DNA of 64,000 bases from an uncultured Candidatus Saccharibacteria bacterium. GTDB lineage: Bacteria > Patescibacteriota > Minisyncoccia > UBA6257. Of this stretch, positions 32,536 to 34,715 are shown in pieces. Within the stretch, counting starts at the first letter, position 1, and the number at the start of each line of letters is the position of its first letter. The notes below the pieces were generated by a model that saw nothing but the letters and a program-made list of their open reading frames with translations, searched no databases and was not told where the DNA came from. The stretch spans positions 161,278-225,277 of the forward strand of contig CAYZJA010000002.1 of the NCBI GenBank assembly GCA_964479005.1, read 5' to 3'. Position numbers and translations under genes: made by a program.

Positions 32536-33674
32536 AAATTTTATTCGTATCGCATTCCTCTAATTTATACGGAGCTGAGAGAGTTTTATTAGATCTAGTA
32601 ATAGGGTTGAGGGGTAAAAAGATAGAATCAATGGTAATACTACCATCTTTTGGTCCTTTATGTGAAAAATTAAAAAAAGAACAAATAAAATACAAAATCA
32701 TTCCTTTTAAAGGATGGGCATCAGGATCATCATCATTTTTTAAAAGAATTTTAAGGATTATCTTTAATATTTTTGCAGTACCTCGTTTTTATTTACTTAT
32801 TCGTAAAGAAAAGCCAGATCTTATTGTTACAAGCTCTGCCGTTACCCCTCCCATAGGAGCAATAGTTGCTTACATTTTTCACATACCTCATTTTTGGTAT
32901 ATCCATGAGCTTGTTGAAAAGAAGCAAGGCCTTAGCTATAATTTAGGTATTAATTTTTCAACTAAGTTAATTAATAAATTTTCTAAGTTAGTTATTGTTA
33001 ATTCCATTGCGGTAAAAAATAAATATAAAAATTATATTCCAGAAGGTAAGTTAAAGTTAATTTATTGCGGAATTGAATTAAAAGAAAAAGAGAGAGGTGA
33101 AATTGGAAACATTATTTTGAACCATTACGAAGATTACTTTCAACTTTGTACTGTTGCTTACATCAGCTCAGGCAAGGGCCAAATGGATGCGGTACGAACC
33201 ATCAACTTATTGGTGAAAGAAGGATATAAAGTTGTTTTGTTCATAGTTGGTGGTGGCGACTCAGACTATATTGCTGAAATAAAACAATTTATCAATATTC
33301 ACCACTTAGAAAATAATATATTTTTAAGCGGTTTTTTGGAAAATCCTAAAAAAATTTATGAAATAAGTGATGTTTCATTGATGTGCTCTCGGATGGAAGC
33401 ATTTGGGAGAGTGACGGTTGAAGCTATGTTGCACAAAAAACCGATTATAGGAGCCCGAAGTGGTGGTACCCTTGAATTAATCAAGGAAGGTTTTAATGGT
33501 TTTTTCTATGAACCAGGTAATTTTACAGAACTCGCAGAAAAGATAAAATATTTAATAAATAATAAAACAGAAAGACTGAAGATGGGTGAAAATGCTTATT
33601 GGTGGGCGAAGGAAAAGTTTTCTCTACAAAAGTTTATAGAAGAGTTTTATAAAATATGCCAAAAGTTTCTATAA
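32532..33674 (+). CDS. Glycosyltransferase family 4 (GT-B, group 1)
   Basis: C-terminal EAFGRVTVEAMLHKKPIIGARSGGTLELIKEGFNGF (E-x7-E region). Confidence 0.8.
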   Translation: MKILFVSHSSNLYGAERVLLDLVIGLRGKKIESMVILPSFGPLCEKLKKEQIKYKIIPFKGWASGSSSFFKRILRIIFNIFAVPRFYLLIRKEKPDLIVTSSAVTPPIGAIVAYIFHIPHFWYIHELVEKKQGLSYNLGINFSTKLINKFSKLVIVNSIAVKNKYKNYIPEGKLKLIYCGIELKEKERGEIGNIILNHYEDYFQLCTVAYISSGKGQMDAVRTINLLVKEGYKVVLFIVGGGDSDYIAEIKQFINIHHLENNIFLSGFLENPKKIYEISDVSLMCSRMEAFGRVTVEAMLHKKPIIGARSGGTLELIKEGFNGFFYEPGNFTELAEKIKYLINNKTERLKMGENAYWWAKEKFSLQKFIEEFYKICQKFL

Positions 33675-33763
33675 TAATTCTTAATTGGAATAGATATAAA
33701 AATAAAGAAATTATGAAAGACTCAAATCAAAACTGGGCTGGTACAGGTATACTATATATATGA
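33656..33763 (+). pseudogene. N-terminal stub (35 codons) of a GT2 glycosyltransferase ([13 protein letters not shown]…), first of two repeated stubs
   Basis: Shares about 45 bp (CCAAAAGTTTCTATAATAATTCTTAATTGGAAT.GAT) with the second stub at 34641. Overlaps the GT4 stop. Confidence 0.55.
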
Positions 33764-33924
33764 ATATAGCAGTATTAGAATTTTTTTAGATAACTTTAAG
33801 AAGCAAGAATTTGCAAAAATGAAAAATGTCAGAAGATTTTTTTACTCGTTAAGAGAAGTAGGTTTTAAAAAAAACGATATCTAAGCTTATTTTAAAATTT
33901 ATAGAACACAGCGTTTATACGCAA

Positions 33925-34635
33925 ATGAATAATTTTAAAAGCGTTGAAGAATATTTTCAGAATAAAATAGGATTAGAAATAGGCGGACCAAGCAACTTCT
34001 TTACTAAAAATGGTTGCATGCCGATTTATCAGATTGTATCAAGATTAGATGGAGTAAATTTTTCCTCAACGACTGTTTGGACAGGGAGCATTGATTCGTC
34101 AAAAGGGTATTTGGTAGGGGGAAAATGTTTTGGAAAACAGTTTATTTTAGACGCAACTGATTTGTCAAAATTGGATAAAGGAACATATGATTTTGTTTTG
34201 TCTTGCAATAATATTGAGCATGTGGCTAATCCATTAAGGGCTATTGAACAATGGGTGTCTATGTTAAAATCAAATGGGGTTATCGTTATCGTTGCCCTTA
34301 GGAAAGAATCAAATTTTGATCATAATCGCAATATTGTAAAATTTACTCATCTTCTTGAAGATTATAATAATAATATTCAGGAAAACGATCTCGGACATTT
34401 GGAAGAAATATTGAAACTACATGATTTAACATTAGACCCACCGGCTGGCACGATAGAACAGCTTAAAGAAAGAAGTTTGAAAAATTTTGAAAATTGTTGT
34501 TTGCATCAACATATTTTTGATTTAAATGTTTTGTCTGAAATTTATATTTATTTCAAATTGTCAATTGTTGCAAAATTTGAGATTCAGACCGATTATGTGA
34601 TAATTGGCGTGAAAGATATCTTTATTAAAGGATAA
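33925..34635 (+). CDS. Class I SAM-dependent methyltransferase (type 11-like), candidate sugar O-methyltransferase
   Basis: …LEIGGPSNFF…VLSCNNIEHVANPLRAIEQWVSMLKSNGVIVI…. Confidence 0.6.
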   Translation: MNNFKSVEEYFQNKIGLEIGGPSNFFTKNGCMPIYQIVSRLDGVNFSSTTVWTGSIDSSKGYLVGGKCFGKQFILDATDLSKLDKGTYDFVLSCNNIEHVANPLRAIEQWVSMLKSNGVIVIVALRKESNFDHNRNIVKFTHLLEDYNNNIQENDLGHLEEILKLHDLTLDPPAGTIEQLKERSLKNFENCCLHQHIFDLNVLSEIYIYFKLSIVAKFEIQTDYVIIGVKDIFIKG

Positions 34636-34640
34636 AAAAG

Positions 34641-34715
34641 ATGACTCCAAAAGTTTCTATAATAATTCTTAATTGGAATGGATGGAAAGATGATAAATTT
34701 TTTTTTGAAATATAA
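34641..34715 (+). pseudogene. Second GT2 N-terminal stub ([24 protein letters not shown]), ending in a T9 homopolymer just before the intact GT2 gene
   Basis: Near-identical 45-bp repeat of 33658-33703. Followed by the poly-T tract and the next start codon. Confidence 0.55.

What the first reader, a model, noticed from the sequence alone, without database searches (positions are those of the whole stretch)
33656..34715. Two tandem remnants of a GT2 N-terminus sharing a 45-bp repeat; possible recombination hotspot for glycosyltransferase swapping
[13 protein letters not shown]… (33656) and [17 protein letters not shown]… (34641) are both short stubs with the classic GT2 opening motif. They share CCAAAAGTTTCTATAATAATTCTTAATTGGAAT at the DNA level. 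Each sits immediately 5' of a complete but different gene, a methyltransferase and a GT2 with its own N-terminus. The second stub ends in a T9 homopolymer. Repeated 5' gene stubs are what cassette replacement by homologous recombination at a conserved 5' end leaves behind.
Basis: seen in the sequence. Interest (0 to 1): 0.55.

Follow-up and report, generated by a model that had tools for sequence, protein, structure and literature searches.

The report
Decayed glycosyltransferase gene stubs at recombination scars
The two short "genes" are dead 5' fragments of a common family-2 glycosyltransferase, left at deletion and replacement scars in the highly variable surface-sugar gene cluster of an uncultured Paceibacteria (candidate phyla radiation) bacterium, which is an ordinary by-product of how such clusters evolve.

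Summary
An exact 33-nt direct repeat lies at 33659-33691 and 34647-34679, with 0 matches expected by chance and 41/45 identity over 45 bp. It is identical in five independent Logan assemblies and one JGI assembly. Both copies are 5' remnants of a roughly 300-aa GT2 family ("GT2x", N-terminus M..[23 protein letters not shown]) that is common in Patescibacteria metagenomes. No GT2x body follows either stub in any frame.

Stub 1 is a chimera. About 16 GT2x codons are fused to the last 19 codons of a CmcI-like methyltransferase gene. Stub 2 keeps about 16 codons, and its T9 tract sits at a second deletion junction. Both stubs also occur in a related lineage (SecA 90% identical), where stub 2 has a stop at codon 15 and T4 in place of T9. 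They are therefore old, non-coding scars.

Stub 1 marks exactly where homology with that lineage begins. Both window copies share a TCT codon seen in none of 67 other family members, which suggests gene conversion between them.

The methyltransferase between the stubs is not intact: an A8 tract frameshifts it (relatives have A7 and 271 aa). Phase variation is unsupported. The hotspot idea is partly supported.

The parts
31522..32535 (+). GT2-methyltransferase fusion gene, truncated at its 3' end (337 aa here, 439-454 aa in relatives). It forms the left flank of the GT4 insertion.
   Evidence: Pfam Glyco_tranf_2_5 plus Methyltransf_11 covering only profile positions 1-76/95. Homologues 74-78% identical in L060, L077 and L057 are full length and are followed directly by an intact GT2x. 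The junction lies at AAAAAAATG, the internal Met codon of the relatives' gene.
32532..33674 (+). GT4 glycosyltransferase gene, found only in this lineage. Its last 6 codons and its stop codon are read from stub 1.
   Evidence: Pfam Glycos_transf_1/Glyco_transf_4. The best homologue outside this organism is 44% identical. C-terminal alignment. Absent from the related locus L005.
33656..33763 (+). Stub 1 ORF (35 aa). It is a chimeric pseudogene made of a GT2x 5' end fused to the 3' end of a CmcI-like methyltransferase gene.
   Evidence: The orthologous 35-aa ORF in L005 differs by mostly non-synonymous changes in its tail.
33659..33691 (+). Direct repeat copy 1 (33 nt, exact).
33656..33703 (+). 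GT2x-derived part of stub 1 (codons 1-16, [16 protein letters not shown]).
   Evidence: HMM of intact GT2x, profile positions 1-14, E 3.3e-5. Resembles the NWN(N/R)YKDTKE subtype of the family.
33704..33763 (+). 3' remnant (last 19 codons plus stop) of a Methyltransf_24/CmcI-like methyltransferase gene. The gene is intact in L077 at 1509-2297.
   Evidence: BLASTP 13/20 identities, E 4e-8, aligned to residues 241-260 of 262. DNA alignment A1. Pfam of the L077 protein.
33819..34635 (+). Class I SAM methyltransferase gene, 271 aa in relatives. It is disrupted here by a +1 frameshift, and the remaining ORF is 33925-34635 (236 aa).
   Evidence: Cluster members P0122 (271 aa) and P0121 (236 aa). L005 has A7 where the window has A8. 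Pfam Methyltransf_11/23.
33867..33874 (+). A8 homopolymer that frameshifts the methyltransferase gene.
   Evidence: A8 is present in three Logan runs and in the JGI contig.
34641..34715 (+). Stub 2 ORF (24 aa). It is the GT2x 5' remnant (about 16 codons) followed by junction sequence.
   Evidence: HMM profile positions 1-15, E 1.1e-6. The orthologue in L005 has a stop at codon 15, and the one in L098 has TGG changed to TAG at codon 12.
34647..34679 (+). Direct repeat copy 2 (33 nt, exact).
34698..34706 (+). T9 tract at a deletion junction.
   Evidence: L098 carries about 190 extra nt at this point, including a further GT2 N-terminal remnant. L005 has T4. T9 is invariant in five Logan runs and the JGI contig.
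34718..35623 (+). Intact 301-aa rhamnosyltransferase-like GT2 with its own N-terminus. It contains an internal recombination breakpoint at about 35010.
   Evidence: Pfam PF00535. TIGR01556 rhamnosyltransferase, 185.8 bits, below the 200.55 cut-off. Identity to L005 falls from about 95% to about 75% at about 35010.

Best explanation
The two stubs are non-functional 5' remnants of two members of one GT2 family (GT2x). They sit at illegitimate deletion and replacement junctions in the hypervariable, rhamnose-linked surface-glycan gene cluster of a Paceibacteria (CPR) bacterium.

Inferred history:
1. An ancestor carried ...GT2x-a ... CmcI-like MT - MT271 - GT2x-b - another GT2 - GT2-301...
2. A deletion joined GT2x-a at about codon 17 to the last 19 codons of the CmcI-like MT. 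This made stub 1.
3. GT2x-b lost everything after about codon 16. This made stub 2.
4. A further deletion removed the next GT2 remnant and left a T-run at the joint.
5. These events predate the split from the L005 lineage.
6. Later, the DNA to the left of stub 1 was replaced independently in the two lineages. Here a single GT4 gene was inserted into the 3' end of the GT2-MT fusion gene.
7. A short gene-conversion tract made the two stubs identical.
8. An extra A frameshifted MT271.

The stubs encode nothing today. Their remaining role is as 33 bp of direct homology that can recombine.
For: SHOWN:
- The repeat is real and reproducible.
- Both stubs match only the first 14-15 positions of a GT2x HMM. 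No GT2x body is present in any frame, and no intact GT2x exists in the 64-kb window.
- Intact GT2x genes (288-366 aa) with this 5' sequence are common: 2 genome contigs and 74 metagenome contigs.
- In relatives, the GT2-MT fusion gene is followed directly by an intact GT2x.
- The tail of stub 1 is the C-terminus of a CmcI-like MT (E 4e-8).
- L005 carries both stubs in the same order, with the stub 2 ORF broken at codon 15. L098 has it broken at codon 12.
- The window and L005 share only three blocks. The middle block starts at window 33662, inside stub 1.
- L098 retains about 190 nt, with another GT2 remnant, exactly where the window has T9.
- Both window stubs have Ser codon TCT. It is TCA in 67/67 other family sequences and in all orthologous stubs.
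- The chance of 10 identical codons between unrelated family members is about 0.6^10, or about 0.006.
- Other 5' stubs and 3' remnants litter these loci.

ESTABLISHED KNOWLEDGE: gene remnants at junctions are typical of O-antigen and capsule clusters (PMC3715488, PMC5399914).
Against: - The order of events is inferred from only three lineages.
- Both stubs are cut at nearly the same codon (about 16). That would also fit duplication of a single pre-existing stub.
- The gene-conversion argument rests on 3-5 nucleotide positions.
- The left junction in L005 (DegT stop, 1 nt, ATG) looks native. A homologous crossover inside the stub therefore cannot be excluded for the upstream replacements.
- There is no expression data, so a regulatory role is not formally excluded.
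Confidence: 0.75

Rival explanations
1. One reading: the conserved GT2x 5' end is an active homologous-recombination handle. The stubs are footprints of cassette replacement at that handle, so this site is a current hotspot for swapping glycosyltransferases.
For: - Homology with L005 begins at the first codons of stub 1.
- Of 56 internal homology breakpoints among 77 contigs, 22 fall within 100 nt either side of a GT2x start. Pairs that are 99% identical switch partner at -7, -12, -19, +115 and +116.
- The L051 tandem paralogues share an identical 300-nt 5' module.
- The concerted TCT change shows that the two stubs have exchanged sequence.
Against: - Homologous exchange at a shared 5' end leaves no stub.
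- The stubs' right-hand joints are illegitimate, to a CmcI-like MT 3' end and to a deletion junction.
- The stubs are ancient and are decaying in sister lineages.
- Family-wide, the 5' end is conserved as protein, not as DNA. The identical-codon fraction is 0.62 against a 0.5-0.55 baseline.
- Stubs of unrelated gene families occur too.
- The breakpoint clustering is confounded by how the contigs were sampled and by possible metagenome assembly chimeras at conserved repeats.
Confidence: 0.25
2. The 988-bp unit (stub, MT, stub) is a single-gene cassette. It was inserted by one Campbell-type crossover of a circular DNA carrying a GT2x 5' fragment, which duplicated one original stub.
For: - Exact direct repeats flank one gene.
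- Both stubs end at about the same codon.
- Pop-out circles are plausible between identical 5' modules such as those in L051.
Against: - The two stubs differ directly after codon 12 (RYKN against GWKD) and resemble different GT2x subtypes.
- Stub 1 is followed by a remnant of a different methyltransferase and by what looks like the native spacer upstream of MT271.
- L098 has MT271 and stub 2 without stub 1.
- No variant lacking the cassette was found.
Confidence: 0.1
3. The stubs are functional. They act as leader peptides or translational-coupling ORFs or as promoters for the downstream genes, or as a T9 phase-variation switch for the 301-aa GT2.
For: - Stub 2 stops 2 nt before the GT2-301 ATG.
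- The repeat contains TATAAT, and one promoter-like match overlaps stub 1.
- The four substitutions in the GT2x part of stub 1 relative to L005 are all synonymous.
Against: - The stub 2 ORF is broken at codon 15 in L005 and at codon 12 in L098.
- T9 is T4 in L005 and is invariant in six assemblies here.
- Promoter-like sites are not more frequent than in shuffled sequence (15 against 9.5 +/- 3.6), and none overlaps stub 2 on the + strand.
- The tail of stub 1 evolves mostly by non-synonymous change.
Confidence: 0.05
4. Assembly artefact: a collapsed or chimeric repeat, or frameshift errors that hide longer genes.
For: Short-read k=31 contigs break at the repeat.
Against: - Six independent assemblies agree base for base, including both unique flanks of each copy and both homopolymers.
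- The same architecture occurs in three assemblies of a different lineage.
- No GT2x coding sequence lies downstream in any frame.
Confidence: 0.02

Closest known systems
Gene remnants at recombination junctions of O-antigen and capsule gene clusters. Examples are the Salmonella wzy remnants between wbaV and wbaU, and the tyv remnant in the Yersinia pseudotuberculosis Abe module (PMC3715488, PMC5399914).
   Same: - It is a surface-polysaccharide cluster bounded by conserved genes, here rml genes on one side and UbiA/PgpA/heparinase/Bac_transf on the other.
- Blocks show different relatedness to a sister lineage.
- Truncated gene fragments mark the block boundaries and decay by serial deletions.
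[quoted passage not shown] The window fits that pattern.
   Different: - The host is an uncultured, small-genome Paceibacteria (CPR) bacterium, not a proteobacterial pathogen.
- No IS or H-repeat elements lie at the junctions.
- Two remnants of the same gene family form an exact 33-bp direct repeat that appears to have been homogenised.
Homology-facilitated illegitimate recombination during natural transformation: one homologous anchor and one illegitimate joint at microhomology. This comparison rests on my own knowledge of work in Acinetobacter and Streptococcus pneumoniae and was not checked in a paper here.
   Same: - One side of each replaced segment coincides with a conserved sequence, the GT2x start.
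- The other side is a joint at short A/T-rich microhomology: AAAAAAATG at the GT4 left junction, AAAGAA at the stub 1 to MT joint, and a T-run at the stub 2 joint.
   Different: The mechanism is inferred from scars only. DNA uptake and recombination have not been studied in this organism.
Homopolymer-tract contingency (phase-variable) glycosyltransferase and methyltransferase genes of Campylobacter, Haemophilus and Neisseria (Moxon et al. 2006, cited in PMC5399914).
   Same: An A8 tract lies in the 5' part of a glycan-locus methyltransferase. A one-base change switches the ORF between 271 aa and a truncated form.
   Different: - No length variation was seen in six assemblies.

Membership tests
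Glycosyltransferase family 2 (GT-A fold, Pfam PF00535), as functional enzymes | N-terminal beta-strand and turn motif (K/R)VS(I/V)(I/V)I(L/P)xxN that opens the nucleotide-binding domain. | tested here: met
   An HMM built from 36 intact GT2x genes matches stub 2 (profile positions 1-15, E 1.1e-6) and stub 1 (positions 1-14, E 3.3e-5). Pfam itself gives no hit for such short peptides.
Glycosyltransferase family 2 (GT-A fold, Pfam PF00535), as functional enzymes | A complete GT-A domain with the DxD or DNGS nucleotide-sugar and metal site and the acceptor half (about 250-300 aa). | tested here: not met
   The ORFs are 35 and 24 aa. A six-frame HMM search finds no continuation in any frame downstream of either stub. 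They are fragments, not enzymes.
Gene remnants at junctions of mosaic polysaccharide gene clusters | Located in a glycan cluster with conserved flanks and a variable centre. | tested here: met
   rmlA-D, flippase, GT2, GT4 and methyltransferase genes. Window against L005: the flanks are 84-86% identical and the centre differs, apart from one block. L094 and L097 share only the downstream backbone.
Gene remnants at junctions of mosaic polysaccharide gene clusters | The fragment is homologous to an intact gene at the corresponding place in related clusters. | tested here: met
   An intact GT2x directly follows the GT2-MT fusion gene in L060 and L077. An intact CmcI-like MT in L077 matches the tail of stub 1.
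Gene remnants at junctions of mosaic polysaccharide gene clusters | The fragment coincides with a boundary between blocks of different ancestry, or with a deletion joint. | tested here: met
   Stub 1 is the left edge of the shared block at 33662. The tail of stub 2 is a deletion joint relative to L098.
Phase-variable contingency locus (homopolymer switch) | The tract lies in the coding region or promoter of a functional gene, and length changes toggle expression. | tested here: not met
   T9 (34698-34706) lies in the tail of a dead stub. L005 has T4 and a stop codon upstream of it.
Phase-variable contingency locus (homopolymer switch) | Tract length varies within or between populations. | tested here: inconclusive
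   T9 and A8 are identical in five Logan runs and the JGI contig, but these are consensus sequences only. Read-level data could not be examined. A8 against A7 does differ between lineages and toggles the MT frame.
Mobile cassette systems (integron attC, IS or transposon target duplication) | Imperfect inverted-repeat recombination sites or terminal inverted repeats, together with an integrase or transposase. | tested here: not met
   No inverted repeat is associated with the unit, only chance-level A/T-rich pairs. The direct repeat is coding sequence of a GT2 gene. No integrase or transposase appears among the neighbouring ORFs scanned. The whole genome was not examined.

The most novel reading that the evidence does not exclude
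In Paceibacteria and other CPR bacteria, the near-invariant 5' module of the GT2x family may act as a portable homology handle. Incoming DNA or tandem paralogues would recombine there and swap the acceptor-specific 3' halves and adjacent genes, diversifying the surface glycan. Dead stubs such as these two would persist, kept "fresh" by gene conversion, as landing pads for further exchange.
Probability: 0.15. Interest if true: 0.6.

Novelty: new member of a known kind. Interest (0 to 1): 0.3.

Why it matters
This region shows in detail how a surface-glycan cluster of an uncultured, reduced-genome CPR bacterium is rebuilt. The tools are single-gene insertions, serial deletions at A/T-rich microhomologies, in-frame gene fusions and short-tract gene conversion, and they leave a trail of 5' stubs.

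For annotation, the two small ORFs should not be called genes, and the methyltransferase between them should be marked as frameshifted.

The family-level pattern deserves a proper test with long-read data. That pattern is mosaic boundaries at GT2x starts and tandem paralogues with an identical 300-nt 5' module. Surface-glycan variation in episymbiotic CPR bacteria probably matters for host attachment and phage evasion.

Tried and rejected
- **Promoter or terminator role.** The consensus scan gave 15 promoter-like sites against 9.5 +/- 3.6 in shuffles and no terminators. Rejected as evidence.
- **Tandem-repeat or microsatellite structure.** Nothing relevant was found.
- **Structured RNA.** Rfam found only rRNA and tRNA in the window.
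- **Close strains with an intact GT2 at the stub positions.** None were found. The GT4's nearest homologue is 44% identical. The genome-contig scan returned only two distant MAGs.
- **GT4-GT2x as a native gene pair in a donor.** The best GT4 homologue's contig, L099, shows no GT2x next to it.
- **Family-wide DNA-level homogenisation of the GT2x 5' end.** Rejected. Outside the 10 codons selected by my search pattern, synonymous codon identity is 0.62, against a baseline of 0.5-0.55. The N-terminus is conserved as protein.
- **A variant lacking the methyltransferase cassette (pop-out between the repeats).** None appeared among the contigs carrying the flanking genes. k=31 contigs cannot link across the repeat, so this remains untested at read level.
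- **Relatives reached through SecA (L094, L096, L097).** They share the downstream backbone, but their contigs either carry different genes upstream of UbiA or stop short of the stub region.
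Full report
**1. Observation**

Both copies are on the + strand, 988 nt apart. There are no other matches at up to 3 mismatches, and none in 100 shuffles. Identity continues weakly beyond the 33-mer: 8 of the next 12 nt match, and the longest extension is 54 nt at 85%. "45 bp" therefore overstates the exact repeat, which is 33 bp (41/45 over 45 bp).

The two ORFs (33656-33763, 35 aa; 34641-34715, 24 aa) and the T9 run (34698-34706) are as described.

The sequence is reproducible. JGI contig Ga0079367_1005354 is 100% identical to the window over 32071-39122. 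Contigs from five SRA runs are 100% identical wherever they overlap. The k=31 Logan contigs end inside the repeat, at 33688 or starting at 34647/34650, and the inter-repeat piece assembles as a separate 1018-nt contig. That is what a true 33-nt repeat produces.

**2. Context and organism**

All genes in the region are on the + strand. They form a surface-polysaccharide cluster:
- UDP-GlcNAc 2-epimerase, a flippase and rmlA-D;
- a GT2-methyltransferase fusion gene (31522-32535);
- a GT4 (32532-33674);
- stub 1;
- a class I methyltransferase (ORF 33925-34635);
- stub 2;
- a rhamnosyltransferase-like GT2 (34718-35623);
- further transferases;
- then UbiA, PgpA, a heparinase-like gene, the initiating phosphotransferase, MurB and SecA.

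The window is about 30% G+C. Its 23S rRNA gene is interrupted by a LAGLIDADG ORF. SecA's best named homologues, at 80% identity, are from Candidatus Paceibacterota/Pacebacteria MAGs. From this I infer that the organism is an uncultured Paceibacteria (CPR/Patescibacteria) bacterium.

**3. The stubs are 5' remnants of a common GT2 family**

I searched for a 30-nt version of the repeat, degenerate at four synonymous positions. It found 2 genome contigs, one labelled Patescibacteria, and 74 metagenome contigs. In most of them the match opens an intact 288-366-aa GT2 with the N-terminus M(N)[41 protein letters not shown]. I call this family GT2x.

An HMM built from 36 intact members matches stub 2 at profile positions 1-15 (E 1.1e-6) and stub 1 at positions 1-14 (E 3.3e-5). 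It finds no GT2x body downstream of either stub in any frame, and no intact GT2x anywhere in the window.

In relatives, the homologue of the GT2-MT fusion gene (74-78% identical) is full length at 439-454 aa and is followed directly by an intact GT2x (L060, L077). In the window that fusion gene stops at codon 337. The GT4 start codon sits on what is an internal Met codon in the relatives, at the microhomology AAAAAAATG. The GT4 has no homologue above 44% identity outside this organism.

**4. Anatomy of stub 1**

Codons 1-16 are GT2x-like. Codons 14-33 align with the last 20 residues (241-260 of 262) of a Methyltransf_24/CmcI-like methyltransferase that is intact in L077. The match is 13/20 identical with E 4e-8, the two ORFs stop within two codons of each other in that alignment, and the DNA aligns as well.

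Stub 1 is therefore a deletion joint, at or near a shared AAAGAA. It fuses a GT2x start to the 3' end of another gene. The 55 nt that follow (33764-33818) look like the native spacer in front of the next methyltransferase gene.

**5. The methyltransferase is not intact**

Its 90%-identity cluster contains 271-aa proteins. The related locus L005 has A7 where the window has A8 (33867-33874). With A7 the ORF runs from the ATG at 33819. A8 is present in three Logan runs and in the JGI contig. The window gene is either a pseudogene or is expressed without its first 35 residues from the ATG at 33925.

**6. Comparison with a sister lineage (L005 and others; SecA 90% identical)**

Only three blocks align with the window: 30116-31469 (86%), 33662-35624 (88%) and 39576-47303 (85%). 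The DNA between these blocks is unrelated. The middle block begins inside stub 1 and ends at the stop codon of GT2-301.

L005 carries both stubs in the same order. Stub 1 is again a 35-aa chimeric ORF, preceded there by a 3' remnant of a DegT aminotransferase gene. Stub 2 reads [14 protein letters not shown] followed by a stop, and the T-run is T4. The stubs therefore predate the split of the two lineages and are not maintained as ORFs.

Identity along the block is uneven. It is 86% over stub 1, 95-100% from 33757 to about 35010, and about 75% from there to the end of GT2-301. This places a recombination breakpoint inside GT2-301.

**7. A third lineage (L098)**

This contig has several features:
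- a chimeric methyltransferase, with the N-terminus of the CmcI-like gene fused in frame to the MT271 body;
- a more decayed stub 2 (TGG changed to TAG at codon 12);
- about 190 extra nt between stub 2 and GT2-301, including yet another GT2 N-terminal remnant (KISVALYTYNGELYL...).

The window and L005 lack that segment. The window's T9 lies exactly at the joint, between ...GATGATAAA and TTTTGAAATATAATTATG. T9 is thus a deletion scar, possibly lengthened by slippage, and not a conserved switch.

**8. Why are the two copies identical?**

Across the GT2x family the N-terminus is conserved as protein, not as DNA. Outside the ten codons that my pattern selected, the fraction of identical codons at identical residues is 0.62 in codons 11-40, against 0.5-0.55 elsewhere. 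Ten identical codons between unrelated members would then be expected at roughly 0.6^10, or about 0.006.

Both window stubs carry the Ser codon TCT. All 67 distinct family sequences retrieved have TCA. So do both L005 stubs and the L098 stub 2. Window stub 1 also agrees with window stub 2, and not with its own orthologue, at CCA and CTT.

The most economical reading, which is an inference, is a short gene-conversion tract from stub 2 to stub 1 in the window lineage. The repeats have thus interacted by homologous recombination at least once.

**9. Is the GT2x 5' end a recombination hotspot?**

Evidence in favour:
- Among 77 oriented contigs there are 56 internal ends of alignments of at least 300 nt at 88% identity or more. 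Of these, 22 lie within 100 nt either side of a GT2x start and about 14 more lie within +100 to +400.
- Nearly identical contig pairs switch partner at the gene start or within its first 120 nt. L015/L035 (99.95% over 2 kb) switch at -7. L031/L069 (99.7% over 7.5 kb) switch at -12. L015/L059 (99.1% over 7.1 kb) switch at +115. L023/L030 (99.5%) switch at +116.
- L051 has two tandem intact GT2x genes whose first ~300 nt are 100% identical and whose remainders are about 50% identical.

Caveats:
- The contigs were collected because they contain this sequence, so positions near it are over-sampled.
- Some short hits only reflect conservation of the domain.
- Metagenome assemblers can join strains or paralogues at conserved repeats.
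- 5' stubs of unrelated families also occur. A 54-aa UDP-sugar dehydrogenase stub lies at window 26626-26790, a 130-aa RmlD stub lies in L005, and a 57-aa stub of another GT2 type lies in L077 and L098. Stub formation is therefore a general property of these loci.

**10. Function today**

Nothing supports a coding or regulatory role:
- ORF integrity is not conserved.
- The tail of stub 1 changes mostly non-synonymously.
- Promoter-like matches are not enriched.
- T9 and A8 show no length differences among six assemblies, although these are consensus sequences only.

**11. Comparison with what is known**

Gene remnants at junctions of mosaic O-antigen clusters are well documented. Examples are the Salmonella wzy remnants that decay by serial deletion, and the tyv remnant in Y. 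pseudotuberculosis, where one crossover was proposed to be homologous and the other to lie inside a gene. In the same species wzx is itself a mosaic junction (PMC3715488, PMC5399914).

The present case is a new example of that kind in a CPR bacterium. Its added details are a chimeric stub, homogenised 33-bp stubs and junctions at A/T-rich microhomologies. It is not a phase-variation locus, an integron-type cassette or an IS footprint (see the membership table).

**12. Verdict**

The stubs themselves, however, are old illegitimate-deletion scars, T9 is a scar and not a switch, and the "complete" methyltransferase is frameshifted. Interest is modest.

Noticed in passing
window 33819-34635 (A8 at 33867-33874): The methyltransferase between the stubs is frameshifted by one extra A. 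Relatives with A7 encode 271 aa from the ATG that corresponds to 33819. A8 is constant in all assemblies of this organism.
   Followed up: yes
window 31522-32535 and 32532-33674: The GT2-methyltransferase fusion gene is cut at codon 337 (439-454 aa in relatives) by insertion of a single GT4 gene. The GT4 ATG falls on the relatives' internal Met codon, at the microhomology AAAAAAATG.
   Followed up: yes
window about 35010, inside GT2-301 (34718-35623): Identity to the sister locus L005 drops sharply from about 95% to about 75%. This is an intragenic recombination breakpoint in an intact rhamnosyltransferase-like GT2.
   Followed up: partly
window 26626-26790: A 54-aa ORF consists of the first 42 profile positions of the UDP-glucose/GDP-mannose dehydrogenase NAD-binding domain. 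It lies directly after the UDP-GlcNAc 2-epimerase gene. This is another 5' gene stub in the same cluster.
   Followed up: partly
window 17731-18741 and 24843-25532: A full YceG/MltG gene and a 5'-truncated second copy bracket about 6 kb that carries pyruvyl transferase, epimerase and TPP-enzyme genes. The last 219 nt of the two copies are 89.5% identical. It looks like an insertion flanked by a duplicated gene fragment.
   Followed up: partly
window 10296-13864, 12542-13033, 13966-14430: The 23S rRNA gene is about 640 nt longer than the Rfam model and contains a LAGLIDADG endonuclease ORF. A second LAGLIDADG ORF lies between the 23S and 5S genes. The 16S gene starts about 50 kb away at 63676, so the rRNA genes are unlinked.
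   Followed up: partly
L051 2636-3600 and 3595-4520: Two tandem intact GT2x genes have a 100% identical first ~300 nt. Their remainders are about 50% identical. This indicates module shuffling or gene conversion of the nucleotide-binding half.
   Followed up: partly
L098 1-1298: One 1.3-kb contig holds three different GT2 5' stubs. It also holds an in-frame chimeric methyltransferase, made of the CmcI-like N-terminus (about 41 aa) joined to the MT271 body.
   Followed up: partly
L005 9580-9831 and 12811-13203: The sister locus carries a 3' remnant of a DegT aminotransferase gene directly upstream of stub 1. It also carries a 130-aa RmlD N-terminal stub downstream of its GT2 genes.
   Followed up: partly
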